From the NCBI RefSeq assembly GCF_000025925.1, contig NC_014033.1, positions 1,080,001-1,112,000 of the forward strand: DNA of 32,000 nt, given 5' to 3'. Positions within the stretch are counted from its first letter, which is position 1. Every line of letters starts with the position of its first letter. A program made the translations under genes and the position numbers. The notes under the pieces were generated by a model. The model did not search any database. It was not told the origin of the DNA and saw only the letters and a list, made by a program, of their open reading frames with translations. The DNA is from Xylanibacter ruminicola 23. GTDB taxonomy: Bacteria; Bacteroidota; Bacteroidia; Bacteroidales; Bacteroidaceae. Shown in pieces: positions 8,720 to 28,064 of the stretch.

Positions 8720-10234
8720 TTATTGTACTGCAGATAAGAGTTTCTCCCAAATTTTGACCATTGCAAATGTATCTAGGCCGCAATATGCTAGTAATGCTTT
8801 CCTTGTTTTTGCCTGTTCCTCAGGATCCATAAACTGAATCTTTGGGAATATGGTCATTGCCTCGCTACCATTATGAACACAACCTTCTAGATTATGGTAA
8901 TCCAATGATGGATCGTTAGGGAATAAGGTAGGCAGTACTACCTTAATGGAGAACGAGCCTCCCATCGCTGGCAGGTAATACTGACCAGCAGCAAACGGGT
9001 CAAGTAAATCCTTGATGTTGTCTTTGATGTTCAGCAGATGCTCAGCCAGGTCAGGATACCACCCTGCCAGTTCTTTGATGCGCGTGCACTCAAAGGATTT
9101 ATTAAAGGCAAGGGTACATACATTCATAGGAATATCCTTGCATAGCTGCTCTGCCAAAGCTCTTCTTGGGTCGGAGCCAGAAATTCCCAGATGTTCTTTG
9201 TGTATTAGTTCACCACCTTCATTTTCAATGATATGCAGTGAATACTGGAACGTAATCTGCTGGTAAACCTTTGTTCCTTCAAACTCTGGAACAACCTGTT
9301 GTATAGTTTCAAAGTCCAGAAAATACAATGGATAGGTCAAAGTGTTCAAGAACTCTTTAATTTTGTCTGGCTCAATGTGTGGTTTATTGGCTAATGCGCT
9401 TTCTATCTGTATTCGCCTCACAGGAGTCAGCTTCTCATTCTTAACATCATTGTATGATATTATACCCTGACGATAATACTTCAGCTTGTCTGAGAAGCGC
9501 ATACGATAAAGGTCGAATACTGATGGGGATGGAATGTGTCGAGAGCAGTATTTGAAGAAACCGCAGTCGTATGGAGCCTTACATCCTTCCCAGATATCCT
9601 GCTCGGGCTCTTCGCAGCTTTGCAGGAGTTTTAAAGCAGCAGTTTGTCTTGCTTCCACCTGAGCATATTCGTCGGCTATCATTTCAGAAACATCGTTGAT
9701 AACGAACAGACGCTTCAAATCAAGTTCGCCCTCTCTTACATAGTCTGAATTAAGGCAAACCAGATATGTGCCAGTAACGTTGATTCCGCATTTTTCGAGT
9801 ACCCATTTCTGATAGGCGATATCTGGCAGGAATTTGCCCAGTTTAGCTGGTTTACCATCAAATTCAGGATAGCTAACACTCTTTACTTCATAGATGGCAT
9901 ATCCATGCTCTGTGCGGTGAAGTATATCCACAGCACAGTAGTTGCCTTCGAAAGAGAATGCAGCTTCACATATATTGTCTTGGCCTTCAGCTATCAAATT
10001 CTTGGTGTTTTGAATCATAGCAGACAAATCAAGACTTCCATCAGCTCGCTTTACTGTAACATCCACATAGGGACCAAGGACACCTTTGGCAAGATTTCCG
10101 ACTTCCGTACCTTTTTCAAAGCGCCCTTCAGCAGATGGGTCGATCACTTCTTCCTCTGGCTTATACACGCTCATCCATAAGCACTTGGGGCACTGACAAT
10201 ACTTAGCGTACTTCGACTTTGATAGCTGTTTCAT
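8720..10234 (-). CDS. DUF2779-family protein: N-terminal Cas4-like PD-(D/E)XK nuclease plus C-terminal DnaQ/RNase-H-like exonuclease
   Basis: N-terminus LSKSKYAKYCQCPKCLW. Nuclease core AVDILHRTEHGYAIYEVKS. C-terminal YFLDFETIQQVVPEF...ITFQYSLH (DxE exonuclease motif). Its start lies 2 nt after the WYL gene stop. Confidence 0.8.
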   Translation of the reverse strand: MKQLSKSKYAKYCQCPKCLWMSVYKPEEEVIDPSAEGRFEKGTEVGNLAKGVLGPYVDVTVKRADGSLDLSAMIQNTKNLIAEGQDNICEAAFSFEGNYCAVDILHRTEHGYAIYEVKSVSYPEFDGKPAKLGKFLPDIAYQKWVLEKCGINVTGTYLVCLNSDYVREGELDLKRLFVINDVSEMIADEYAQVEARQTAALKLLQSCEEPEQDIWEGCKAPYDCGFFKYCSRHIPSPSVFDLYRMRFSDKLKYYRQGIISYNDVKNEKLTPVRRIQIESALANKPHIEPDKIKEFLNTLTYPLYFLDFETIQQVVPEFEGTKVYQQITFQYSLHIIENEGGELIHKEHLGISGSDPRRALAEQLCKDIPMNVCTLAFNKSFECTRIKELAGWYPDLAEHLLNIKDNIKDLLDPFAAGQYYLPAMGGSFSIKVVLPTLFPNDPSLDYHNLEGCVHNGSEAMTIFPKIQFMDPEEQAKTRKALLAYCGLDTFAMVKIWEKLLSAVQ

Positions 10235-10236
10235 CG

Positions 10237-11730
10237 TTATTTCTCGTTTAAATAGTTTTCGATTATTTCTGATTTAAGCGCTCTGCGCACTACGTCTCGG
10301 GTAAATGGGCAACCATCTACATATTCTTTTGGGTATGCGTTAGCCATTTCCAGTAGTCCATTGTATAGTTCACGCACCACATCCTTGCATCGTGCAAATC
10401 CTTTGAAAGGCAGGCTTTCCTTACTTACTCGGCTATTAAGAGTAACTGTGATATCCATCATATCGCCAACCTTCTTCAGCTCTATCTTAGTAGGCTCCTC
10501 TTCTTCGCCCAGTTCGATTACAGTCCTGGGATGATTTACTATTCTCTCCAGGCAAGTACTAATGTAACTCCACTCTATGCCCAGGTTTTCGATAGAATCT
10601 GTCATAATCATCGTTCCCAAGCTTATGCGATAGACGATGCATTTCCAATCATTGCTATCATTATGCAGATAGTTGAATGCGAATAACTGCGGCTCTAAGT
10701 CTTCTATATTCAGGCTATCACCTTCTACATTTTTATATGATTGTTTACACCACTCAAGACGCTCCAGCATCTCGTCGCGAAACCATTCAGGTGATTTAAC
10801 CACGAGACGGTCGCCATAGAACATCAGTTCCTGTATTATTTCGTAGTTTAACATCACATCTAGCGATACCTTGATGTTTCTTTCGCCCTCTATCTCAAGC
10901 TTTTGTGTTTCGCTGATGGGATACGAATATAGATAAGGATACAATGAGATATCTGCCCATAGCTCGATGTGCTCCACCGTTTTTTCAGGTGGCACCGTAA
11001 CACCTACCAGATGTTTGAAATATTGCTTAAACGATGTTTTGGTGGCTCGGTATTTTACCTCATTGTTCTCCTTTACAGCACTCATGCAAATCAGCGGATA
11101 AGCCTCAATCTTATCGCAGCCTTCCTGCTGTGCCATCAGATACCAGCGACGCCAGTACTGTTTCAGATAATATGGATGTAAAGTAATCGTTTCTGCATCG
11201 CGAAAATCCTTTCTATATTCCACATCTACCACCTGTCGATTGCGTATAGCTTTGAATAGTGGCATAAGGAATTCTGCATCCCATGGCGTTCCACCTTCAA
11301 AGCGTGCTATCTCTTTCTGCTTACTCATGATGTTCTGGTCAAGACGAGTAAGCATCTGGTCGATCCAGCCAAACTCCGACATACCCTTGAATCCCTGCAA
11401 CAGACTACGTACCTCTTGCAGCTTCTCAATCTCATTCTCCGTCAACTCACGGTTATATATCGAGTCGAATCCGTCGCGATAGCGGTAATAGCGTTTCTTG
11501 TGTCTGTCTTCCCATACGATTCCCTCCTGTCCAAACACCTTAAAGAACTTGGCATTCATCTCGGTAATATCCTGACTAAAGGTAGTTCTCGACTGGATAG
11601 GCAGCATTCCTCTATCCTCCAGCTTCCTGTTTACGATAGCCATCAACTGTTCGCGTGTATATTCACGTCCAGTACCAAAGCACTGATCGTAAATCATTTC
11701 TCGCATTGCATAGTCCTTCGTATTTGCCAT
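10237..11730 (-). CDS. WYL-domain transcriptional regulator (wHTH-WYL-WCX) with an extra C-terminal domain of about 150 aa
   Basis: N-terminal wHTH (MANTKDYAMREMIYDQ...). WYL core VDVEYRKDFRDAETITLHPYYLKQYWRRWYLMA. Start set to MANTK (11730), downstream of the -7 box at 11759-11766. Confidence 0.8.
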   Translation of the reverse strand: MANTKDYAMREMIYDQCFGTGREYTREQLMAIVNRKLEDRGMLPIQSRTTFSQDITEMNAKFFKVFGQEGIVWEDRHKKRYYRYRDGFDSIYNRELTENEIEKLQEVRSLLQGFKGMSEFGWIDQMLTRLDQNIMSKQKEIARFEGGTPWDAEFLMPLFKAIRNRQVVDVEYRKDFRDAETITLHPYYLKQYWRRWYLMAQQEGCDKIEAYPLICMSAVKENNEVKYRATKTSFKQYFKHLVGVTVPPEKTVEHIELWADISLYPYLYSYPISETQKLEIEGERNIKVSLDVMLNYEIIQELMFYGDRLVVKSPEWFRDEMLERLEWCKQSYKNVEGDSLNIEDLEPQLFAFNYLHNDSNDWKCIVYRISLGTMIMTDSIENLGIEWSYISTCLERIVNHPRTVIELGEEEEPTKIELKKVGDMMDITVTLNSRVSKESLPFKGFARCKDVVRELYNGLLEMANAYPKEYVDGCPFTRDVVRRALKSEIIENYLNEK

Positions 11731-11758
11731 ATCGCGTAGTATTTTATAGTTTATAGTG

Positions 11759-11796
11759 CAAAGATACAAAAAATCTGTTCACCTAAAGCGAACAGA
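11759..11796 (-). promoter_or_regulatory. Promoter-operator cassette A (drives WYL and DUF2779 genes)
   Basis: Plus strand caaagata-N7-tctgttc-acctaaagc-gaacaga. On the minus strand this is TCTGTTC-N9-GAACAGA-N7-TATCTTTG. Confidence 0.75.
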
Positions 11797-11815
11797 TAAT
11801 ATTTTTTTTAAAATA

Positions 11816-11858
11816 GAGCTGGCCGCCATACTCAAAAACGTCAAGTGGGTGCCAGCTC
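11816..11858 (-). ncRNA. Hairpin element H1 (terminal element of RNA array 1, terminator-like)
   Basis: 8-bp closing stem GAGCTGGC/GCCAGCTC with inner helices. Followed on the minus strand by TATTTTAAAAAAAA. Paralog of H2; both share ggccgccatactc...caagtggg. Confidence 0.55.
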
Positions 11859-11860
11859 CA

Positions 11861-11909
11861 ACAGAACTCGTTCCCTCAATAACGGGCATGCGATATTCTG
11901 TTTGTCTAA
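11861..11909 (-). repeat. E-family bulged hairpin, copy E1 (degenerate)
   Basis: ACAGAA/TTCTGT outer stem, inner CCC/GGG helix, conserved tail ttgtctaa (minus strand TTAGACAA precedes the hairpin). Confidence 0.5.
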
Positions 11910-11940
11910 CCATTTCAAAGAAATCTTTTCCTTATTAAAA

Positions 11941-11981
11941 GGCTGGCCGCCATACTCGATAATGCCAAGTGGGAGCCAGCC
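11941..11981 (-). ncRNA. Hairpin element H2
   Basis: 7-bp closing stem GGCTGGC/GCCAGCC plus inner CCA/TGG and CTTG/CGAG helices. Followed on the minus strand by TTTTAAT. Confidence 0.5.
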
Positions 11982-12022
11982 CCAATCTGCACTTAGCCGC
12001 ACCAATTGCGGCAGCCACAGAT

Positions 12023-12120
12023 GTAGATGGAAGTAAGCGACAGAATCGAACTGTTACTGAAAGCCTTGCGGCTTGCCCACCTTTACCATACATCGTGGTT
12101 CTACTTGATCTTCCATCTCC
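12023..12120 (-). ncRNA. tRNA-like element T2 (T-arm, D-arm, GNRA-capped central hairpin, encoded CCA, no anticodon loop)
   Basis: On the minus strand: 11-bp outer stem GGAGATGGAAG/CTTCCATCTAC with one mismatch. D-arm-like CCAC-[..TGGTA..]-GTGG. AAGCC-GCAA-GGCTT hairpin. T-arm ACAG-TTCGATT-CTGT. 3' region GCTTACT-T-CCA. Confidence 0.55.
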
Positions 12121-12172
12121 GACAGGACTCGCGCCCTTACATTGGGCATTGCGATATCTTGTTTGTCTAAGA
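12121..12172 (-). repeat. E-family bulged hairpin, copy E2
   Basis: gacaggactcgcgcccttacattgggcattgcgatatcttgtttgtc. Stacked helices CTCGC/GCGA and GCCC/GGGC with a 7-nt loop and a 3-nt bulge. TTAGAC tail. Confidence 0.55.
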
Positions 12173-12182
12173 CTATAAGAAA

Positions 12183-12263
12183 GGCGGATTGGCGAAGGAG
12201 TTGAACCTTGCAATATACTGCCATTACAGGAAGCCCCGCTACCGCTGCGACCATCAATCCGCC
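12183..12263 (-). ncRNA. tRNA-like element T1 (extended acceptor-like stem, D-arm, canonical T-arm, no anticodon arm)
   Basis: On the minus strand: GGCGGATTG...CAATCCGCC 9-bp terminal stem. D-arm TCGC-AGCGGTA-GCGG. T-arm AAGG-TTCAACT-CCTT. The central region forms only a 3-bp stub GCT-[TCCTGTAAT]-GGC. Confidence 0.55.
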
Positions 12264-12281
12264 TTTTTTACGATGATGTTG

Positions 12282-12319
12282 CAAAGGTAATGTTTATATG
12301 TTCAGCCATAGCGAACAGA
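12282..12319 (-). promoter_or_regulatory. Promoter-operator cassette B (drives RNA array 1, no ORF)
   Basis: caaaggta-N7-tatgttc-agccatagc-gaacaga, the same architecture as cassette A. The next 450 nt downstream on the minus strand are non-coding structured RNA. Confidence 0.7.
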
Positions 12320-12333
12320 CTGAAATTTTTTAT

Positions 12334-12825
12334 TTACATAGTATTTATTTCCGCCAATTCTTCAGGTGTATGATGCTGCATGTCATAGACAAGAGAATCG
12401 TCAGAATAGCCATTCACTATATCCTTAGCCTGTTCTTCAGTAAGAAATGGTTTTCCTTTATCTTTGATATTCAACAGAGCTTTTAAGAAATCCTGGCGAT
12501 AGTGTTCGAAAATCTCTGTAGTATAAGGAAGACTTCTGACGCTATAGTATAACTTCTTGAATTCCTCAACGGTATATATCTTACCATCTATGCACGACAT
12601 GGCACAGGCTTTAGGAAATGTGCACCAGCGTTTCAGTTCAAGATTAACAAGTAAAGATTTCTGTCCTTCTATCTGTTCAACACAGAGAAAACACTTATCC
12701 GTCAAATACTTGATAAACTCTTCCAGTTCTTTTTCGTCTTTACATCTAACTGCATAAGGAAGAATACAACGCCCTTTTCCCATGTAGTCTTCATTTAACT
12801 CTTTATAATATACTTCTTCAAACAT
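12334..12825 (-). CDS. Hypothetical protein (163 aa)
   Basis: ORF 12 nt downstream of the 12838-13179 gene, same strand. No motif recognised. Confidence 0.6.
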   Translation of the reverse strand: MFEEVYYKELNEDYMGKGRCILPYAVRCKDEKELEEFIKYLTDKCFLCVEQIEGQKSLLVNLELKRWCTFPKACAMSCIDGKIYTVEEFKKLYYSVRSLPYTTEIFEHYRQDFLKALLNIKDKGKPFLTEEQAKDIVNGYSDDSLVYDMQHHTPEELAEINTM

Positions 12826-12837
12826 AGTCCGATTCTT

Positions 12838-13179
12838 TTAAGATTGCATTTCTCCAAGTAAATAGTAAACGATTTGAGCTTTAATATACTCTTTACTGTT
12901 TTCCTCGTAGGTAATCAACTTACCAGATCTATTTGAAAACAGTTCTATCTCTGCTTTTTCGATAGCGAACCAATGAGAACTCTGCCCAGCATTGAGCTTC
13001 AAAGCATCATAGTGACGAGGCTGTAAGATACCATCGACATCAATAACGTATCCGTCTTCGTCCAAATCACAAAACAAAGAATTTGTTTCTGGGCGAATCT
13101 CACGAGTGAAAATATTAGTTTTTCCACTTATGATTTCATTCAACCTATGTTGATTTGTATCTAGCTGTATAACTTTCAT
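12838..13179 (-). CDS. Small ASCH/PUA-like domain protein (113 aa)
   Basis: Paralogous by eye to the C-terminal domain of the 13809-15008 protein (shared pattern I..GK....T.EI.P.N......L..DG.V....GI.Q.R.YDA). Start lies 19 nt downstream of the cassette C transcription start region. Confidence 0.55.
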   Translation of the reverse strand: MKVIQLDTNQHRLNEIISGKTNIFTREIRPETNSLFCDLDEDGYVIDVDGILQPRHYDALKLNAGQSSHWFAIEKAEIELFSNRSGKLITYEENSKEYIKAQIVYYLLGEMQS

Positions 13180-13204
13180 GATTCTGATATTTAAAATTTC
13201 GGAA

Positions 13205-13242
13205 CAAAGGTAAGCTATATTTGTTCAGCCAAAGTGAACAGA
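13205..13242 (-). promoter_or_regulatory. Promoter-operator cassette C (drives 12838-13179 and 12334-12825)
   Basis: caaaggta-N7-tttgttc-agccaaagt-gaacaga. Confidence 0.7.
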
Positions 13243-13262
13243 TAAATAATTTTTCAAAAAGA

Positions 13263-13304
13263 GGCAGGACTCGCGCCCTCACATTGGGCATTGCGAGCCC
13301 TGCC
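13263..13304 (-). repeat. E-family bulged hairpin, copy E3 (terminator of RNA array 2)
   Basis: ggcaggactcgcgccctcacattgggcattgcgagccctgcc. About 16 bp of stacked helices. Followed on the minus strand by TCTTTTTG. Confidence 0.6.
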
Positions 13305-13343
13305 CTAACTCCACGACCTCTGTCATTGCCATTGTGGAGAGAA

Positions 13344-13414
13344 AGGATTGGCGAAGGAGTTGAACCTTGCAATATGCCATAGAAGACCTCGCTACCGATG
13401 CGACCATCAATCCT
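13344..13414 (-). ncRNA. tRNA-like element T1-prime (paralog of T1)
   Basis: The 5' 22 nt (one substitution) and 3' 31 nt match T1, including the D-arm TCGC-ATCGGTA-GCGA and T-arm AAGG-TTCAACT-CCTT. Central stub GTC-[TTCTAT]-GGC covaries with T1 (GCT...GGC). Confidence 0.55.
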
Positions 13415-13425
13415 TTTTTTCAAAA

Positions 13426-13468
13426 GGCAGAGCTCGCGCCCTCAATACGGGCATTGCGATGCCCTGCC
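13426..13468 (-). repeat. E-family bulged hairpin, copy E4 (leader hairpin of RNA array 2)
   Basis: ggcagagctcgcgccctcaatacgggcattgcgatgccctgcc. On the minus strand it starts about 15 nt after the predicted start site, is preceded by TTAGACA and is followed by TTTTGAAAAAA. Confidence 0.55.
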
Positions 13469-13488
13469 TGTCTAACCCTATTTTTCTG

Positions 13489-13526
13489 CAAAGGTACCAT
13501 ATATGTGTTCAGGCAAAGCGAATAGA
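13489..13526 (-). promoter_or_regulatory. Promoter-operator cassette D (drives RNA array 2, no ORF)
   Basis: caaaggta-N7-tgtgttc-aggcaaagc-gaataga (one half-site degenerate). Abuts the stop codon of 13527-13802. Confidence 0.65.
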
Positions 13527-13802
13527 TTACATTTTTTCTTTTAAATGGTTCTGATATGCATCCAAAATGGCCGACGAAGCCATGTCACCAATAAGGAACT
13601 CTGGTTCACCTAAATCTTTCAAAAGAGATTCTACATTCTCGCGCTCACCAGTATAGAGCCAATTATTTCGAATCCACAATCCTAGGCCAAAGTGAAAGAA
13701 AACCATATCTTCTGCTTCCACTATTTGCTTTTTCTCTTCCAGTGTTAGCCTCTTATCCAGACATTTCCAAGCCTCCGCTGTTGTTTTAGGACACCTTGCC
13801 AT
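13527..13802 (-). CDS. Hypothetical protein (91 aa)
   Basis: ORF 6 nt downstream of the ASCH gene. Motif FHFGLGLWIRNNW noted but not confidently assigned. Confidence 0.55.
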   Translation of the reverse strand: MARCPKTTAEAWKCLDKRLTLEEKKQIVEAEDMVFFHFGLGLWIRNNWLYTGERENVESLLKDLGEPEFLIGDMASSAILDAYQNHLKEKM

Positions 13803-15364: not shown

Positions 15365-15388
15365 AACTATATATTTTAATTTTTTCGG

Positions 15389-15426
15389 CAAAGTTAAAGA
15401 TTATTTGTTCAGTCAAAATGAACAGA
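15389..15426 (-). promoter_or_regulatory. Promoter-operator cassette E (drives 15029-15364, the ASCH gene and 13527-13802)
   Basis: caaagtta-N7-tttgttc-agtcaaaat-gaacaga. Confidence 0.7.
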
Positions 15427-15559
15427 TTTGAAAAAGTTCACTTTGCAAATAAAAATTAGATAATTTGATCTACACATTCTTTAGGAAAAATTTATCAATT
15501 ATACAATATAAAATGAAGTATCATTAAAGTATCTTTGACTATAACAAATACTGTTCAAG

Positions 15560-18521: not shown

Positions 18522-19469
18522 TTATGCCCACATACAATTAATTGTTATTATGGATGTTGGCATTCCTATTATTTGAATATCAAACTTCAAACTAGGTTCT
18601 ATTAATGTCGAAGCATTATGTATTCTAAAACTAAATTGCCAGCCATTATCCATGTATAATTCTGCAGTATTATTACTTTTAGGCTTTAATCCAAAAGAAA
18701 TAATTCTTGTTGGCAGTAACGATATTGGTATTTTTCTACTTGGCACCTTTGTCTTAGAAGCATGATTTAATGTACCTCGAAGATTAAATGCCATAAGTTG
18801 AGTCATTTTTGATGAATCTATACCAATAAGTTTATAAAAATCATATTTACCTAGTAAGTATTCAACCATACGAGAAGGAACCGTTTTATCTTTTTCATAA
18901 TCCTTGTTAATTTCTTTAATAAAAGCCTTTAACAAAGGAACATATACGGTTGATTCTTTATTAGGGAGAGCACTCCAAGCAATTTTACCCCTGTTTTTTA
19001 TCAGAGGGGCAAAAATTGGGGCAATTTCATCCCAATATGTTTTTGAGCATGGCATACCTAACCAACTATTGCCAAAGTCCAACACATTAGACAATCTACT
19101 ATGTTTAACAGCCAGATGGTTATGCTTTACACTTATACCTATTACCCATTTTACACTATCTCGAATAATTAGAATATCTCTAACATCACCAATAATTCCT
19201 TCTTTGTCAGATTGTAATCTTATTGTGAGTATATCCCCAGAATTATCTTCTATCATAGGTTCAAGCTCACGTAAAGTTGGAATAGCAGCCAATGCTTCCT
19301 TTTTCATAATCGTCTTAGTATTCTCGTCAAGACAATTCCAATTATTCATATCCTGTATAAGGTTGTTGTTGTTTGCTACAACAACAGACCTTATTTTAGA
19401 TATTTCTTCTTCGAGACATTTAACACATATGTATTCAAATGCTCTTCCGAGTTCGTCACTTTTTGGCAT
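18522..19469 (-). CDS. Type II restriction endonuclease, HaeIII-family-like (GGCC predicted)
   Basis: 315 aa. N-terminal GRAFEYICVKCLEE, which I recall as characteristic of the HaeIII REase family. 3-nt gap from the M.HaeIII-like gene. Confidence 0.6.
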   Translation of the reverse strand: MPKSDELGRAFEYICVKCLEEEISKIRSVVVANNNNLIQDMNNWNCLDENTKTIMKKEALAAIPTLRELEPMIEDNSGDILTIRLQSDKEGIIGDVRDILIIRDSVKWVIGISVKHNHLAVKHSRLSNVLDFGNSWLGMPCSKTYWDEIAPIFAPLIKNRGKIAWSALPNKESTVYVPLLKAFIKEINKDYEKDKTVPSRMVEYLLGKYDFYKLIGIDSSKMTQLMAFNLRGTLNHASKTKVPSRKIPISLLPTRIISFGLKPKSNNTAELYMDNGWQFSFRIHNASTLIEPSLKFDIQIIGMPTSIITINCMWA

Positions 19470-19472
19470 AAG

Positions 19473-20465
19473 CTAGAATTCTATAGCATCTTTAATCGCT
19501 AGGGCAATTTCATATGCAAGATTAACTGGAACAGCATTTCCAATCATCTTGTATGCATTGTCTACCTTGTCATAAATAAATTTAAAAGAGTCGGGGAAAC
19601 CTTGTACTCGTGCAACCTCTCGAACAGTCATTCTTCTATACAAATGCTCTTTCCCTTCAACAAATCTACAATCATTTGTGTCAAATTTAATCATCTTTGG
19701 AGCTTGTGGATGTAATTGGCATTGTCTTCCAGATGCCTGAACAGTAAAACCTTGTTCATCCCAAGCCTTAACTCTATTTCTACTCATATAAATTGTAGAA
19801 TAAGCGCCAATAAAATACTCATTGTTATTAATAGCCTCTGGATTATGATGGTTCTTTTCAAGTGCAGGTACTGCACTATCTTTTAAATCCCAAATAATAT
19901 CACGTAGTGTAATTTTTTTCTTATCATCACGTGTACTACCTTCTGGAAATTTAAAATCTATATTTAAATCATTTCTAAAACCAATATAAAATACTCTTTT
20001 TCTTTCTTGAGCTACTCCATAATCTTTTGCATTAACTAAAGTAAGAGAAACATTGTAGCCACTTTCCTTGAACATATTTAATATATTCTGAACGGCACCA
20101 GAATGTCTATCCGCAAGCATACCGCTTACGTTTTCTGCTAAAAAGAATTTAGGTTTTACTTCCTGTAATATTCTTATATAGTCAAAGAAAAGCTGACCTC
20201 TAGCATCTTCAATACCACGTAAAGAACCAGCTTCACTCCAAGATTGACATGGAGGTCCACCTATTATACCATCAACATCTTTAGGGAAGTCACTTTCCTT
20301 GATATTTCTAATATCACCCCTGATTAGCTTTGTTTTGGGGTGATTTGCTTCAAAAGTTTCCCAAATAGAGGGATCAAACTCGTTTGCAACAGGTACTTCA
20401 AATCCAGCTCTTTCAAAGCCAAGATCTAGACCTCCACAACCGCTAAATAAACTTATTACTTTCAT
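19473..20465 (-). CDS. DNA (cytosine-5)-methyltransferase, M.HaeIII-like (GGCC predicted)
   Basis: All C5-MTase motifs: [11 protein letters not shown] (I), [12 protein letters not shown] (IV), ENV (VI), [10 protein letters not shown] (VIII), [13 protein letters not shown] (X). The target-recognition region [19 protein letters not shown] and [14 protein letters not shown] closely tracks the M.HaeIII sequence as I remember it. Confidence 0.9.
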
Positions 20466-20474
20466 TTTTAAATT

Positions 20475-21335
20475 TTATATTTTATATTTTACTAGTTTTA
20501 CTTCTATTAAATCAGCTGTATTATTGGGGTTTTGAACAAAAGTATCTTCTATTGTAAGATTATCAATCCTTTGAGAAAGCTCTGACAATTCATCTATGTT
20601 CTCAAAAGAATTATACTTATCACTTGGTATAATAGCCATTAACTCAAAATTACTTTCATCATATCTGTATATATCGGCAAAACTACCTACTTTAAATGGA
20701 TGAGATATACCCCACATTCCCCTAGCTCTAAAAAAAGTTATTCTCAACGGGTCAACAGCATTTATATGCGCAAGTTCTTTGGTTTCTTCTAAATCTAATT
20801 CAGATGATTCTTCAATGCTTTGTTTCACACTATTAAAAACATTTTCATAACATTCTTTACTTGCACAATATACTGAACCATATACCAGGGCTAATGACTT
20901 TAAATTATTTTTCTTTTTTTCAACACAGCCAATGGCATATATTATATCTTTTACATCCCAATCTCCATTTTCTATTTCACGACAAGCCTTTGATATTTTA
21001 CTATCATTTTTAAACAAATGAGATTTGGGATAGCTACTATTTAAATTAATGTTTCCGATTGACTCAACTTTTTTCACTTCAATTGCAGCTCCTCTTTTAA
21101 GAACTGCATCTGGGGGATTATTCTTTCCACCGCCATATGACAAAGCCTCTGCACGCTTCCTTGTTTTGTCAACACCACTTAAACCAAGAGAATTGGAAAA
21201 AGCATCTTTAATATACTCCTCTAAAGGCTCTCCTAACGAATGTAAACGATTATTAGAATTAGGGGAATTTCCAATAACTCTTCTATTATCTTTAATTATA
21301 TTAATAATTGCAGTAATAATATTGTAATTGCTCAT
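20475..21335 (-). CDS. Second restriction-endonuclease candidate (PD-(D/E)XK; possibly NgoPII-family)
   Basis: 286 aa. PPDAVLKRGAAIEVKK fits a PD...(E)xK catalytic core. Size and N-terminal NIITAIINI...EPLEEYIKDAF resemble what I recall of the NgoPII family. 9-nt gap to the methyltransferase gene. Confidence 0.45.
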   Translation of the reverse strand: MSNYNIITAIINIIKDNRRVIGNSPNSNNRLHSLGEPLEEYIKDAFSNSLGLSGVDKTRKRAEALSYGGGKNNPPDAVLKRGAAIEVKKVESIGNINLNSSYPKSHLFKNDSKISKACREIENGDWDVKDIIYAIGCVEKKKNNLKSLALVYGSVYCASKECYENVFNSVKQSIEESSELDLEETKELAHINAVDPLRITFFRARGMWGISHPFKVGSFADIYRYDESNFELMAIIPSDKYNSFENIDELSELSQRIDNLTIEDTFVQNPNNTADLIEVKLVKYKI

Positions 21336-25449: not shown

Positions 25450-27198
25450 TTACATAATACCACCCAATGAAATAGGATATGTTTCATGCTGGGGAAACTT
25501 CTCACAACCGATGTAGAGGGTATCAAAAGCATCGGTGCCGTCGGTTCGATGCTCGAGCAGGTCCTCTTCAGACTCGGGCTGCTTCTCCATAGACTTGTTC
25601 TTGCGGAAGCCCAACCTGCCCCGCTCTACCCCAGCCGACTGGATTGCCAGTATGAGATCGTCGTTGTTCTGACGATTGAAGAACGGCATGAGGCGCTGCT
25701 TACCAGCGAAGCCCTGATTGATGAGCAGGTACTTCTCATCGTGGCGCATAGGGTTGCCCAGGTACACATCCTGTACCTGCCACCCGTGGCGCTCAAATTC
25801 ATGGACGACGACGTAGCGGAAGTCCTGGTCATTCACGGCATAGTTCGAGCCGAGGGCCGTGGCGTCGTAGTAGAAGATAACCGTCTTGTTCTGATGATAA
25901 GCGTAGTACGCGCAGAAATCATCGACCAAGGCGGGAATCTTACGCTCGAACTTGACGTAGAAGGATTTGAGAATATTCAGGCGGGAGCCAGATGGCTGGC
26001 CGGCTACAATCCAGTTGATATTGGCATTGTAGTCCATGCCGATGCAAATCGGGGCCAGGGGATTCACATCCTCGTCGGTGCGGCTGTCAAGCTGAGAGCC
26101 GAGGGTGCTGAACTGCGAAGCTGCTTTGATGTCGTAGTTCTGAAGGCTCGTCTCCTTCAGAATCTTGTCGTAACCGAGCTCGTCGAGGTACGCAAAGTTC
26201 GAGGCATCATACTTGTGGTGCTCCTGCATCGAGGAGTAAAAACCGTCGTGTGTGATGCCGATACGCTGGCAAAGGATACTGGTCTGAAACGTCTTGGGTG
26301 TCAAGTCACGTTTCATCTGACGCAGATACTCTTCGCCCAGGAGCTGCAGATTCTCAATGGTGCTGTACTCTTTGTAGTACACCGCCACTGAGCGGAACTT
26401 GTTGAGCGACTGGTCCAACCATTTCAAGTAGCCTTTCAGGTACTGAGGAATGGGCTGGTGCTGCTCTTTCAGACGGGCGATACGTTCCTTTGTCTCCCAA
26501 ATCTTATAGATGGTGCCCTGAATGGTGGCAATCAGTTCTGGGTCCATCTTCTCTCGATAATGCAAGAACCAGGAGCCTTTCTGGGTCTGGGGCATATCGG
26601 ATAGAACCATCATTGAGTGATTGAACGAATGATGGCCGAAATATGAGCGAATACCGCCGTTAGCGGGAAGTGTCTCATCTTTCAGTTTGTTGTAATCAAT
26701 GAACTTGGCTTCGTCTATTAGCAGCCAAGAGAGTGTCAGAGAGTTAGAAGATCCAGGACGGTCCTGAGAGATGATAACTGCTATGGATCCGTTGTAGAAC
26801 GTGATGACGTGTTCATAGTCAGCAGGTTCGGTAATTGGCTTGGCAAATGACCTCGGAGGCTTGCGACCAACGACGTAGTGGATACCGTTGAGATAGCCCC
26901 AGCGCTTCCATGCTGCAAGCAGACCAGGAATGGTGTTTGTCAGGCCGTGTTTGAATGTTGGAACCACAATTCCCCCAGTGGAACCGGGCATTCTCTGCAT
27001 ATTCCTTAAGACGAATGGCGAGGCTATGGAGTCTGTTTTACCGGTACGGCGACCAGCGACAATGACGGTTGTCTTGGCACCGATGTACTGTGCCATTAGC
27101 TGGGGCTTGTTGAAGTACACGCGCTTTTCGTGCTTACGGGCTTCATTGTCCCATTGCTTCAGGAGTTCAGGGTTTGTATGAGGGGATTGTGTGGACAT
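25450..27198 (-). CDS. terL: Terminase large subunit
   Basis: Walker A VIVAGRRTGKTDS. Walker B WLLIDEAKF. C-terminal nuclease-type acidic motifs (IGMDYNANINW). 582 aa. Confidence 0.85.
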   Translation of the reverse strand: MSTQSPHTNPELLKQWDNEARKHEKRVYFNKPQLMAQYIGAKTTVIVAGRRTGKTDSIASPFVLRNMQRMPGSTGGIVVPTFKHGLTNTIPGLLAAWKRWGYLNGIHYVVGRKPPRSFAKPITEPADYEHVITFYNGSIAVIISQDRPGSSNSLTLSWLLIDEAKFIDYNKLKDETLPANGGIRSYFGHHSFNHSMMVLSDMPQTQKGSWFLHYREKMDPELIATIQGTIYKIWETKERIARLKEQHQPIPQYLKGYLKWLDQSLNKFRSVAVYYKEYSTIENLQLLGEEYLRQMKRDLTPKTFQTSILCQRIGITHDGFYSSMQEHHKYDASNFAYLDELGYDKILKETSLQNYDIKAASQFSTLGSQLDSRTDEDVNPLAPICIGMDYNANINWIVAGQPSGSRLNILKSFYVKFERKIPALVDDFCAYYAYHQNKTVIFYYDATALGSNYAVNDQDFRYVVVHEFERHGWQVQDVYLGNPMRHDEKYLLINQGFAGKQRLMPFFNRQNNDDLILAIQSAGVERGRLGFRKNKSMEKQPESEEDLLEHRTDGTDAFDTLYIGCEKFPQHETYPISLGGIM

Positions 27199-27233
27199 AA
27201 TAATACCTTTGCTTTTAGGGCAAAGGTATTATT
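27199..27233. promoter_or_regulatory. Perfect 14-bp-arm palindrome carrying the terL -7 box
   Basis: aataatacctttgc-ttttagg-gcaaaggtattatt. It contains TACCTTTG on both strands and sits immediately upstream of the terL ATG. It may double as the terminator of the upstream gene. Confidence 0.6.
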
Positions 27234-27770: not shown

Positions 27771-27880
27771 TGATAAATAACTTGTTAGAACCTTGGTTTA
27801 TATTAAACGAGTGCAAAGGTATATAAATCCATTTAATTATCCAAAGGTTTATATGGAAAATGCAGGAAAAAGGGGAAGAG

Positions 27881-28001
27881 CGCCGATGTATTGAGCAATC
27901 AGCTTGGGAGTGTTGAAGTGCACGCGCTTTTCGTGCTGGTGTGCTTCGGAGTCCCATTGCTTCAGGAGATCTGGGCTTGTATTAGGGGATTGTGTGGACA
28001 T
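27881..28001 (-). pseudogene. Diverged duplicate of the terL 5' end (first about 41 codons)
   Basis: Hand translation MSTQSPNTSPDLLKQWDSEAHQHEKRVHFNTPKLIAQYIGA against intact MSTQSPHTNPELLKQWDNEARKHEKRVYFNKPQLMAQYIGA gives 31 of 41 identical. Homology continues upstream through the hairpin and promoter to about 28035, then the frame runs into unrelated sequence and stops. Confidence 0.8.
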
Positions 28002-28064
28002 AATAATACCTCGCTTTTGAGGCAAAGGTAAGTATTACTTATCGGTAGTAGAAAGACACTTACG

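What the first reader, a model, noticed from the sequence alone, without database searches (positions are those of the whole stretch)
11816..12263. Promoter-driven array of tRNA-mimic RNAs and conserved hairpins with no ORF (array 1)
Cassette B fires into about 450 nt that I read as modular structured RNA rather than coding sequence. The order on the minus strand is T1, E2, T2, a hairpin (ATCTG...GCCGC-AATTGGT-GCGGC...CAGAT), H2, E1, H1, then a T-run.

- T1 and T2 each have a canonical T-arm with the G53:C61-type closing pair and a TTCRANY loop (AAGG-TTCAACT-CCTT and ACAG-TTCGATT-CTGT).
- Each also has a D-arm with a GG-containing loop and a long terminal (acceptor-like) helix.
- Neither can form a 5-bp anticodon stem with a 7-nt U33 loop. 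T1 has a 3-bp stub. T2 has a 5-bp stem capped by a GCAA (GNRA) tetraloop.
- The T2 3' region reads GCTTACT-T-CCA, like an encoded discriminator plus CCA.

These therefore look like tRNA mimics without decoding capacity rather than ordinary phage tRNAs. The possible roles below are speculation:
- decoys or sponges for tRNA-targeting enzymes such as anticodon nucleases, CCA-adding enzyme or modification enzymes;
- RNase P/Z punctuation signals that release the interleaved hairpins;
- ligands for the neighbouring ASCH/PUA-like proteins.
Basis: partly seen in the sequence, partly recalled or inferred. Interest (0 to 1): 0.85.

Follow-up and report, generated by a model that had tools for sequence, protein, structure and literature searches.

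The report
tRNA-shaped RNA arrays in Bacteroidales prophages
A prophage-like island of a Prevotella-type bacterium carries promoter-driven arrays of small folded RNAs, two kinds of which are shaped like tRNAs but have no anticodon loop; one of them belongs to an apparently undescribed RNA gene family found in well over a hundred gut and rumen phage contigs.

Summary
The array is real. On the minus strand of 11805-12342, a Bacteroidetes-type promoter cassette is followed by T1, E2, T2, a hairpin, H2, E1 and H1, then the next cassette.

- **Not tRNAs by the tools used.** ARAGORN finds no tRNA, and no Rfam 15 family reaches threshold. The best match is tRNA-Sec at 16-22 bits against a cutoff of 47.
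- **T1 is a real structured RNA.** There are 56 distinct sequences, 94% of cells are paired, 14 of 22 pairs show compensatory changes, and no shuffle matches this.
  - It has an acceptor-like helix, a canonical T arm, a D-like arm and a short mismatched stem in place of the anticodon arm.
- **T1 also exists as a stand-alone gene.** It has its own promoter and terminator in about 120 metagenomic and IMG/VR contigs. It usually starts 54-57 nt from a terminase small-subunit gene on the opposite strand.
- **T2 is a second, looser tRNA-like family.**
- **The "encoded CCA" is refuted.** It lies inside a helix and is absent from other copies.
- **Context.** Modules are shuffled between related loci. 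Arrays lie upstream of a DriD/BrxR-type WYL regulator gene in 11 of 11 loci with enough sequence.

Function is not shown. My best guess is non-decoding tRNA mimics handled by tRNA-processing enzymes, acting as decoys or cofactors. I rate this a new variant of a known kind.

The parts
12280..12342 (-). P cassette. It holds the inverted repeat TCTGTTCGC-N5-GCTGAACA (12319-12299) and the Bacteroidetes -7 box TAccTTTG (12289-12282). It is the probable promoter and operator that drives array 1.
   Evidence: family D1, 5 copies; 5 sites on the minus strand against 0.05 expected. The -7 box consensus TAnnTTTG is from my own knowledge of Bacteroides promoters.
12183..12263 (-). T1, a tRNA-shaped RNA. 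It has a 9-bp acceptor-like helix, a D-like arm (UCGC-AGCGGUA-GCGG), a mismatched 5-bp stem with a 6-nt loop in place of the anticodon arm, a T arm (AAGG-UUCAACU-CCUU) and a 3-nt CGC linker.
   Evidence: Model R1 scores 99.4 bits. Covariation is. tRNA-Sec scores only 20 bits. ARAGORN finds none.
12113..12172 (-). E2, a long bulged hairpin with the conserved core UCGCAAUGCCC-N7-GGGCGCGA. Its 3' flank runs into the T2 terminal helix.
   Evidence: D3, D6; 18 copies, 90.6% of cells paired.
12026..12117 (-). T2, a second tRNA-like RNA. It has an extended terminal helix (GAUGGAAG/CUUCCAUC plus AAG/CUU), the junction GUAGAA, a D-like hairpin CCAC-GAUGUAUGGUAAAG-GUGG, the hairpin AAGCC-GCAA-GGCUU, a T arm ACAG-UUCGAUU-CUGU and a CGC.
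   Evidence: One search gives 95% paired, with A-U to G-C in the T stem and full replacement of the tetraloop hairpin in L062. Model R2 scores 116 bits.
11985..12022 (-). Module hp, the hairpin AUCUG...GCCGC-AAUUGGU-GCGGC...CAGAU.
   Evidence: z-score -2.4. The homologue in L152 has inner stem GUGGC/GCCAC, a compensatory change.
11937..11984 (-). H2, a hairpin GGGGCUGGC...GCCAGCCUU with the conserved interior CCCACUUGG-N5-UCGAGUAUGGCG, followed by a U-run. It looks like a terminator.
   Evidence: D7; z-score -2.7; 5 distinct copies with compensatory changes.
11859..11911 (-). E1, a variant E hairpin with core UCGCAUGCCC-N8-GGGAACGA, abutting H1.
   Evidence: (D3).
11811..11861 (-). H1, the second H hairpin, followed by UAUUUUAAAAAAAA. 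It marks the end of array 1.
   Evidence: D7; z-score -4.65.
11757..11819 (-). The next P cassette. The inverted repeat (11797-11773) is followed by a T-run and also scores as a terminator. The -7 box TAtcTTTG is at 11766-11759. It drives the WYL gene.
10237..11730 (-). A WYL-WCX regulator gene of 497 aa with an extra C-terminal domain. It lies downstream of the arrays in all related loci with enough sequence.
   Evidence: Pfam WYL and WCX. AF2 model and Foldseek match DriD, PafBC, BrxR and CapW at E 6e-12 to 1e-4.
8720..10234 (-). A DUF2779 / Cas4-like nuclease gene that follows the WYL gene.
   Evidence: It is present in at least 6 array loci. In L152 an RNase_T-like gene takes its place.
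13203..13549 (-). Array 2. It runs P cassette (13549-13487), E3 (13478-13415, with U-run), T1' (13416-13341), hairpin CCAC...GUGG (13337-13311), E4 (13310-13258, with U-run) and P cassette (13265-13203), which drives a 113-aa ORF.
   Evidence: Model R1 scores 89.5 bits on T1'.
12334..12825 (-). A 163-aa ORF between the two arrays. It belongs to a narrow family that travels with the arrays, and its fold is unassigned.
   Evidence: no fold match.

Best explanation
**What it is (shown)**
The 450 nt is a transcription unit made of independently folding, interchangeable RNA modules carried by a prophage-like element of a Prevotella/Xylanibacter-type bacterium.

Two module families, T1 and T2, are tRNA-shaped. 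Each has an acceptor-like terminal helix, a canonical T arm, a GG-containing D-like arm and a short capped stem where the anticodon arm would be. They cannot decode.

**How it most likely works (inferred)**
- The unit starts at a host-type promoter whose -33 region is covered by a conserved inverted repeat. That repeat is probably the operator of the WYL-family regulator encoded just downstream.
- The acceptor/T-arm/elbow part is what is under selection. It makes the RNAs substrates or ligands of proteins that recognise tRNA shape, such as RNase P, RNase Z, CCA-adding enzyme, modification enzymes or tRNA-targeting nucleases.
- Those enzymes would cut the transcript into stable small RNAs.
- The tRNA-shaped products would then act on their own as mimics, either as a decoy or sponge or as a protein cofactor, and not merely as punctuation.
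- E and H hairpins, several of which are followed by U-runs, would serve as terminators, insulators or protein-binding hairpins between modules.
For: **Shown**
- Modules and their order.
- No tRNA, tmRNA or Rfam family.
- T1 structure:
  - 93.6-93.8% of cells are paired, against 31-49% for slid controls.
  - 13-14 pairs show changes on both sides.
  - 0 of 500 shuffles reach the observed values.
- The folded strand is the sense strand. G.U exceeds A.C by 73 to 27 in T1, 23 to 9 in E and 7 to 2 in T2.
- In T1 the T loop and most junction nucleotides are invariant and the D-like loop nearly so, while the 'anticodon' loop varies freely (GAAA, CAAAA, UGUAAU, UUCUAU).
- T2 has a compensatory T-stem change, and the tetraloop hairpin is wholly replaced in L062.
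- Stand-alone T1 genes:
  - The TAnnTTTG box ends 4-6 nt before the start of the acceptor helix.
  - A terminator hairpin follows directly.
  - This holds in dozens of divergent loci.
  - 35 are IMG/VR viral contigs of up to 65 kb.
- T1 and T2-type RNAs co-occur in two unrelated settings.
- Arrays always begin and end at P cassettes.
- The WYL gene is downstream in 10 of 10 loci, plus L152, while WYL identity falls to 58-60% and module content is reshuffled.
- The WYL protein has the DriD/PafBC/BrxR/CapW fold.

**Inferred**
Transcription, processing by tRNA enzymes, regulation by the WYL protein and the decoy or cofactor role.
Against: - There are no expression data.
- The Rfam tRNA models score T1 far below threshold and do not score T2 at all, so recognition by tRNA enzymes is a conjecture.
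- T1 has a 4-nt 5' connector and a 3-nt NGC linker between the T stem and the acceptor strand. tRNAs have neither.
- The D arm of T1 has almost no covariation. A rival pairing is equally compatible (UGAUG/CAUCG hairpin plus GCGR/UUGC extension).
- The commonest human-gut subfamily has two U.U mismatches in the acceptor helix.
- T2 rests on only 7-10 distinct sequences.
- No 3' CCA is encoded.
- E elements with U-runs sit directly upstream of T1 with no room for a promoter. If they terminate efficiently, the downstream modules would not be made.
- The WYL synteny comes from one prophage lineage, so it is partly phylogenetic inertia.
- No known tRNA-targeting defence or toxin gene was recognised next to the arrays.
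Confidence: 0.5

Rival explanations
1. T1 is an antisense or immunity RNA, comparable to phage P1/P7 C4 and P4 CI. Those are tRNA-like and are matured by RNase P. On this reading T1 acts by base-pairing with the complementary leader of the late (terS) transcript. Array copies would act in trans on related phages as a form of superinfection interference.
For: - In about 50 stand-alone loci the terS start codon lies 54-57 nt from the T1 5' end on the opposite strand. This holds even where terS is only 58% identical.
- The terS-sense strand has no TAnnTTTG box within about 300 nt upstream of terS in 49 of 50 distinct loci. The late transcript therefore probably reads through T1 in antisense.
- The C4/CI precedent is from my own knowledge.
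Against: - The window's two T1 copies are not antisense to any gene. The window's own terL/terS region has no T1.
- The best-conserved parts are the T loop, D loop and junctions, not a target-pairing loop.
- Other T1 copies sit next to tRNA genes (L036) or a Cas9 locus (L085), with no terS nearby.
- No Rfam C4 match was found.
Confidence: 0.15
2. The array is a long cis-regulatory leader for the downstream WYL-nuclease operon. E and H act as conditional terminators, and the tRNA-like modules act as sensors or antiterminator platforms.
For: - Arrays are always upstream of the WYL gene and on the same strand.
- E3, E4, H1 and H2 are hairpins followed by U-runs.
Against: - A complete P cassette, with promoter box and a terminator-like inverted repeat, separates the array from the WYL gene.
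- Arrays also precede unrelated small ORFs, such as array 2 and L018.
- Stand-alone T1 genes end in a terminator and have no downstream gene in the same orientation.
- Module number and order vary freely.
Confidence: 0.12
3. These are decayed tRNA genes or leftovers of tRNA-gene attachment sites, with no function of their own.
For: - They have T-arm and acceptor-like features.
- Prophages often integrate into tRNA or tmRNA genes. In L024, T1 lies 800 nt from a tmRNA gene.
Against: - T1 is conserved across at least 56 distinct sequences, with compensatory changes and invariant loops.
- It has its own promoter and terminator at fixed distances.
- It lies inside phage genomes next to terS, not at prophage ends.
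- It retains no recognisable anticodon arm in any copy.
Confidence: 0.05
4. These are DNA-level repeats, such as attC-like recombination sites, MITE or REP elements or packaging signals. Their palindromes would only look like RNA structure.
For: - Modules are shuffled between loci like cassettes.
- Several E copies begin with GUUAGAC, which fits the integron core GTTRRRY.
- Stand-alone T1 sits where pac or cos sites often are, next to terS.
Against: - There is a strand-specific excess of G.U over A.C in all three families.
- The canonical T-loop sequence occurs on one strand only.
- Promoter and terminator are oriented with that strand.
- The GTTRRRY start is missing in many E copies.
- None of the 30 window ORFs scanned with Pfam matched an integrase. 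That scan was not exhaustive.
Confidence: 0.05
5. The region encodes small proteins, namely the 92-aa and 76-aa TTG-start ORFs on the minus strand.
For: The mechanical ORFs 11935-12213 and 12054-12284 exist.
Against: - Both start at TTG.
- The same modules occur in other orders and numbers in L018, L038, L080 and L152, so the frames are not preserved.
- Substitutions are paired across helices rather than showing codon periodicity.
Confidence: 0.02

Closest known systems
Bacterial Y RNAs of the YrlA type (Chen et al. 2014, PMC4201824)
   Same: - They are non-decoding RNAs of about 100 nt whose conserved part mimics the tRNA D arm, T arm and acceptor stem.
- They occur in bacteria and phages, sometimes several in a row.
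- That paper shows they are modified by tRNA enzymes, cut by RNase P and given CCA.
   Different: - YrlA is defined by its link to Ro60/Rsr and a Ro-binding stem. Its modules come in a different order, T, then acceptor-like stem, then D.
- T1 has the tRNA order, no long Ro-type stem and no TROVE gene among the 30 window ORFs scanned.
- No Rfam Y RNA match was found.
tRNA-like domain of tmRNA
   Same: It has an acceptor helix plus T arm, a reduced D region and no anticodon arm. The only Rfam tmRNA signal is a 17-nt T-arm match in a T2-type copy.
   Different: There is no tag reading frame, no pseudoknots and no G3:U70 pair, and the RNA is about 80 nt rather than about 360 nt. ARAGORN finds no tmRNA.
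Phage P1/P7 C4 and P4 CI immunity RNAs (own knowledge)
   Same: They are small phage RNAs with tRNA-like folds that RNase P matures. They are encoded next to the transcript they control.
   Different: They work through loops complementary to nearby targets. T1's conserved loops are tRNA-type, and the array copies have no local target. No Rfam C4 match was found.
Murid gammaherpesvirus 68 tRNA-miRNA units (own knowledge)
   Same: A non-aminoacylated viral tRNA-like RNA is followed by hairpins, and tRNase Z separates them. The layout, tRNA-like module then hairpins, is the same.
   Different: That system is eukaryotic, and the tRNA-like part supplies an internal pol III promoter. Here stand-alone T1 genes show that the tRNA-like RNA has a role by itself.
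Ordinary phage tRNA gene clusters
   Same: They are short RNA genes in phage accessory regions. One T1 copy (L036) lies directly after two real tRNA genes.
   Different: No T1 or T2 copy has an anticodon loop. Detector scores are far below threshold.
WYL-WCX regulators DriD, PafBC, BrxR and CapW (for the linked protein, not the RNA)
   Same: The downstream 497-aa protein has the same wHTH-WYL-WCX fold. Those regulators bind inverted repeats in promoters and sense nucleic-acid ligands.
   Different: There is an extra domain of about 160 aa at the C terminus. Neither its ligand nor its binding to the P-cassette repeat was tested.

Membership tests
canonical tRNA | Recognised by tRNA detectors (ARAGORN; Rfam tRNA clan at gathering score) | tested here: not met
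   ARAGORN finds 0 genes in the window. The best Rfam match is tRNA-Sec at 15.9-22.4 bits against a cutoff of 47 for T1. T2 gets nothing.
canonical tRNA | 5-bp anticodon stem with a 7-nt loop carrying U33 | tested here: not met
   T1 has 3 bp, a 1x1 mismatch and 2-3 bp, capped by GAAA, CAAAA or a hexaloop, or a 3-bp stem. T2 has a 5-bp stem with GNRA, or another short hairpin.
canonical tRNA | T arm with a G53-C61 closing pair and a UUCRANY loop | tested here: met
   GG-UUCAACU-CC is invariant in 42 T1 sequences. The variants are UUCGACU and UUCGAGU. T2 has UUCGAUU, UUCGAGU or UUCGAAU.
canonical tRNA | 7-bp acceptor stacked directly on a 5-bp T stem, with a 2-nt connector to the D stem | tested here: not met
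   T1 has a 7-9-bp helix, a 4-nt connector AUGG, a 4-bp T stem and a 3-nt NGC linker.
canonical tRNA | D arm with G18 G19 | tested here: inconclusive
   UCGC-AUCGGUA-GCGR pairs in 96.4-97.7% of cells but shows one compensatory case only (L036). A rival pairing fits equally well.
canonical tRNA | Single-stranded 3' discriminator plus CCA, either encoded or added | tested here: not met
   As an encoded feature it is not met. The T2 CCA lies in a helix and is absent from other copies, and T1 is followed by a terminator hairpin or a U-rich spacer. Post-transcriptional addition cannot be tested here.
tmRNA | tRNA-like domain plus tag reading frame and pseudoknots | tested here: not met
   ARAGORN finds no tmRNA. 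The Rfam tmRNA match covers only the 17-nt T arm.
YrlA / bacterial Y RNA | Encoded next to an Ro60/Rsr (TROVE) gene and carrying a Ro-binding stem | tested here: not met
   No TROVE domain occurs in the 30 window ORFs scanned with Pfam. Only a 212-aa VWA protein is present. The T1 termini form a short acceptor-like helix.
YrlA / bacterial Y RNA | tRNA-like D and T stem-loops that tRNA enzymes use as substrates | not testable with these tools
   The sequence features are present. Enzymatic recognition needs an experiment.
C4 / CI phage antisense RNAs | Rfam C4 model match, with loops complementary to a nearby target | tested here: not met
   No Rfam match was found, even at E up to 10. Stand-alone T1 is fully antisense to the region upstream of terS, but the array copies have no local target.
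type III toxin-antitoxin RNA arrays (ToxI-like) | Tandem near-identical short repeats upstream of an endoribonuclease toxin | tested here: not met
   Tandem Repeats Finder finds nothing in 11600-13700 apart from a 7-nt duplication. The modules are heterogeneous. There is no ToxN-like hit in PADLOC.
intrinsic terminators (for E and H only) | G+C-rich hairpin followed directly by a U-run | tested here: inconclusive
   E3, E4, H1 and H2 are followed by U-rich tracts. The simple scan scores E4 and the P-cassette repeat only. E1 and E2 have no U-run.

The most novel reading that the evidence does not exclude
Temperate phages of gut and rumen Bacteroidales carry an exchangeable arsenal of tRNA-shaped, non-decoding RNAs and companion hairpins. 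A WYL-type nucleic-acid-sensing regulator switches the arsenal on. The RNAs titrate or redirect proteins that recognise tRNA shape, such as host tRNA-cleaving immune nucleases, toxins or processing enzymes. This would be an RNA-only counter-defence or inter-phage competition system. The stand-alone T1 gene next to terS would be its minimal, widespread form.
Probability: 0.2. Interest if true: 0.85.

Novelty: new variant of a known kind. Interest (0 to 1): 0.7.

Why it matters
Non-decoding tRNA mimics are known from a few systems: Y RNAs, tmRNA, viral tRNA-like structures and herpesvirus vtRNAs.

This finding would add a family that is common in phages of the dominant gut and rumen phylum. It matches no Rfam 15 family, and my literature searches found no description of it. 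Its gene anatomy is unusually clear, with its own promoter and terminator and fixed synteny with terS.

The arrays also show RNA modules being reshuffled like gene cassettes under one promoter type, next to a nucleic-acid-sensing regulator. That gives a concrete, testable entry point into two questions:
- what phage-encoded structured RNAs do;
- whether tRNA shape is used as a decoy in phage-host conflicts.

A cultured strain, Xylanibacter ruminicola D31d, carries an array, so experiments are feasible.

Tried and rejected
**Searches that found nothing**
- Ordinary tRNA or tmRNA: ARAGORN finds none.
- Known RNA families: Rfam at gathering score on the window and on 10 related loci, and at E-value level on five array regions. 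Only sub-threshold tRNA-Sec hits and noise turned up.
- GenBank phages:
  - blastn with the array found nothing.
  - blastn with stand-alone T1 gave only two short non-homologous hits.
  - The one phage record with a related terS has no T1.
- First viral-contig scans with array-specific strings: nothing. A degenerate T1 pattern later found 35.
- Literature: five searches, including sequence strings, found no description.

**Searches of limited use**
It gave 2 real loci and 16 chance hits in G+C-rich genomes. T1 could therefore not be scanned across species representatives.

**Ideas considered and dropped**
- Tandem repeats or a ToxI-like array: none.
- Integron attC idea for E, which starts GUUAGAC: dropped because of strand-specific G.U pairs and inconsistent cores.
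- Defence-system models for the neighbours: only generic WYL and Cas4-like hits.

**Neighbouring proteins**
- The 163-aa neighbour has no Pfam, PHROG or PDB sequence match. Its AF2 model (pLDDT 70) has no fold match.
- WYL relatives of 345 aa and 511 aa, from other contexts, have no T1 or T2 upstream.

**Structure**
- A rival T1 fold from RNAalifold was tested and could not be excluded for the D region.
Full report
**1. What is in the window**

Read on the minus strand, the stretch 12342-11757 consists of the following, in order:
- A cassette with an inverted repeat and the Bacteroidetes -7 box TAccTTTG.
- T1 (12263-12183).
- E2 (12172-12113).
- T2 (12117-12026).
- A hairpin (12022-11985).
- H2 (11984-11937).
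- E1 (11911-11859).
- H1 (11861-11811), followed by a U-run.
- A second copy of the cassette, which precedes a 497-aa gene.

The repeat finder shows that these are families:
- The cassette occurs five times.
- E occurs four times.
- H occurs twice.
- T1 occurs twice. The second copy is in a shorter array at 13549-13203.

The cassette's inverted repeat has 5 sites on the minus strand, against 0.05 expected by chance.

Single-sequence folding gives clearly better-than-shuffled hairpins for E3, E4, H1, H2 and the hairpin module. T1 and T2 taken alone give unremarkable values. The case for T1 and T2 therefore has to come from comparison with other sequences.

**2. Not ordinary tRNAs and not a known family**

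- ARAGORN finds no tRNA or tmRNA in the 32 kb.
- Rfam 15 at gathering thresholds finds nothing.
- At permissive E-values the only relevant signal is tRNA-Sec for T1, at 15.9-22.4 bits against a gathering score of 47.
  - That model has a 9/4 acceptor/T-stem geometry.
- The only other relevant signal is a 17-nt tmRNA T-arm match in one T2-type copy.
- GenBank phage records hold no homologue of the array or of T1.
- Full-text searches, including searches for sequence strings, found no description.

**3. T1 is a real and widespread RNA family**

*How many and where*
- A degenerate T1 pattern found 89 metagenome contigs, of which 5 were chance hits, and 35 IMG/VR viral contigs of up to 65 kb.
- A covariance model built from 42 distinct sequences (R1) recovers 96 and 35 matches at 33-106 bits. 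These include divergent 'T1b' copies with a longer D loop and a UUCGAGU T loop.

*Evidence for the cloverleaf-like structure*
- 93.6-93.8% of cells form pairs, against 31-49% when partners are slid.
- 13-14 of 22 pairs have changes on both sides.
- None of 500 shuffles reaches the observed values.
- Covariation is strongest in the acceptor-like helix and in the stem that replaces the anticodon arm.
- G.U pairs outnumber A.C by 73 to 27, so the sense strand is the one that folds.

*Conserved and variable parts*
- Invariant or nearly invariant: the T loop, the D-like loop AUCGGUA, and the junctions AUGG and AUAUUGC.
- Freely variable: the loop at the anticodon position (GAAA, CAAAA, UGUAAU, UUCUAU).

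*Departures from tRNA*
- A 4-nt 5' connector.
- A 4-bp T stem.
- A 3-nt NGC linker before the 3' acceptor strand.
- No anticodon loop.

*One caveat*
- The D arm has almost no covariation.
- RNAalifold prefers another pairing for that region, and the counts cannot exclude it.
- A G-C to C-G swap in L036 favours the D arm.

**4. Gene anatomy of stand-alone T1**

- In most of the loci retrieved, T1 is a gene on its own.
  - A TAnnTTTG box ends 4-6 nt before the start of the acceptor helix.
  - A G+C-rich hairpin with a U-run follows the last pair directly.
- In about 50 of the loci held, the start codon of a terminase small-subunit gene (PHROG 309) lies 54-57 nt away on the other strand.
  - This includes loci where that protein is only 58% identical.
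- L031 shows the setting: Rha anti-repressor, an ASCH-like protein, PAPS reductase, a ParB-like nuclease, then T1, then terS.
- The terS-sense strand has no promoter box within about 300 nt in 49 of 50 distinct loci.
  - The late transcript therefore probably crosses T1 in antisense. This is an inference.
- Other copies lie elsewhere:
  - after two real tRNA genes (L036);
  - 800 nt from a tmRNA gene (L024);
  - next to a Cas9 locus (L085).

**5. T2**

- Seven distinct copies share four elements:
  - a terminal helix of 5 bp extended by 4-9 further pairs;
  - the junction GUAGAG;
  - a 4-bp hairpin with the invariant 14-nt loop GAUGUAUGGUAAAG;
  - a 5-bp hairpin capped by GNRA and a T arm, RCAG-UUCGAUU-CUGY, followed by CGC.
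- The T stem changes A-U to G-C.
- The tetraloop hairpin is replaced by UGGUA-UCA-UACCA in L062.
- Model R2 finds more divergent members with 5-bp T stems and UUCGAGU or UUCGAAU loops.
  - It also gives weak matches directly after stand-alone T1 genes in L040 and L076.
- T1 and T2-type RNAs therefore travel together in two settings.
It is absent from the other copies.

**6. E, H and the other modules**

- E is a hairpin of about 16 bp with a bulge and a 7-8-nt loop.
  - Its core is conserved and its outer stem varies.
  - Across 18 copies, 90.6% of cells are paired and 4 pairs have double changes.
- H (5 distinct copies) and the hairpin module show compensatory changes by inspection.
- Several E and both H copies are followed by U-runs.
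- Related loci contain further modules, here called X, Y and Z.
- Module number and order differ between loci. Every array starts at one P cassette and ends at the next.

**7. Context and the link to a regulator**

- The window matches a 3.58-Mb contig of GCA_019973335.1.
- It looks like a prophage accessory region. Its contents are:
  - weak terL and portal matches;
  - a CI-type repressor gene just beyond the window end in L001;
  - UmuDC;
  - a GGCC restriction-modification block;
  - an ASCH protein;
  - a DUF6794 protein.
- The closest arrays in named genomes are in Xylanibacter ruminicola D31d and a Prevotella MAG.
- In 10 of 10 array loci with enough sequence, and again in L152, the 497-aa WYL gene lies downstream on the same strand.
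  - WYL identity falls to 58-60% across these loci.
  - A DUF2779/Cas4-like gene usually follows. In L152 an RNase_T-like gene follows instead.
- The WYL protein has the wHTH-WYL-WCX fold of DriD, PafBC, BrxR and CapW, plus an unassigned C-terminal domain.
- Those regulators bind inverted repeats and sense nucleic acids. From this I infer that the WYL protein controls the P cassettes.
- WYL relatives from other contexts have no T1 or T2.

**8. Interpretation**

- *Shown:* a modular array of structured RNAs. It includes one well-supported family (T1) and one moderately supported family (T2) of tRNA-shaped, non-decoding RNAs, in phage-derived DNA.
- *Inferred:* that they are transcribed from the cassette promoter, matured by tRNA enzymes, and act as mimics.
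- Stand-alone T1 genes argue against a purely punctuating role.
- An antisense role against the terS leader is a serious rival for the stand-alone copies. It does not explain the arrays.
- The closest known analogues are YrlA-type Y RNAs, the tmRNA tRNA-like domain, the C4/CI RNAs and the herpesvirus tRNA-miRNA units. Membership in each fails on a defining feature.
- I therefore class this as a new variant of the tRNA-mimic kind.

Noticed in passing
window 11757-11819, 12280-12342, 13203-13265, 13487-13549, 15387-15449: A promoter cassette occurs five times on the minus strand. It has the inverted repeat TCTRTTCR-N7-TGAACA placed over the -33 region of a TAnnTTTG promoter. It heads ORFs as well as RNA arrays, and it recurs in L017, L018, L038 and L152. 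It looks like a shared operator.
   Followed up: partly
window 27849-28036 and 27077-27233: A 157-nt duplication at 80% identity covers the 5' end of the terminase-large-subunit-like ORF together with its promoter and hairpin. The upstream copy leaves a 58-aa fragment ORF.
   Followed up: partly
window 18522-21335: Two unrelated restriction endonuclease families, RE_NgoPII and RE_HaeIII, flank a single C5 cytosine methylase.
   Followed up: no
L085 5239-5319 (also L078 and L096): A T1 copy with its own promoter and terminator lies about 260 nt upstream of a 1422-aa Cas9-like ORF (MKRILGLDLGTNSIGW...). What looks like a tracrRNA lies on the opposite strand between them. This is a single lineage and may be coincidence.
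   Followed up: partly
L040 595-707 and L076 929-1043 (minus strand): A divergent T2-like element (terminal helix, GUAGAG, a GUCGAUA loop, CGC) sits directly after the terminator of a stand-alone T1 gene. T1 and T2 types therefore co-occur outside the arrays.
   Followed up: partly
L038 1970-2070 and 2300-2420; L152 4700-4900 and 5560-5900: Further conserved non-coding modules, here called X, Y and Z, occur in related arrays. Y shows signs of a pseudoknot. None matches Rfam.
   Followed up: no
L024 4187-4843: A tandem array of repeats of roughly 66 nt follows directly after the stand-alone T1 gene. It lies in a small tmRNA-adjacent remnant shared by 13 or more human-gut contigs.
   Followed up: no
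L148 9205-9224 (minus strand): The invariant 20-nt D-like loop string of T2 occurs in an intergenic region of an unrelated IMG/VR contig. Model R2 does not match there, and about one chance hit is expected.
   Followed up: partly
L017 1600-1700: There are tandem copies of CAGAATTCGCCTTGAATTTACG downstream of a lone cassette-plus-E unit.
   Followed up: no
L031 1803-2300 (minus strand); also L036: A conserved 165-aa ORF with no Pfam or PHROG match ends convergently just after the T1 terminator in terS-linked loci.
   Followed up: no
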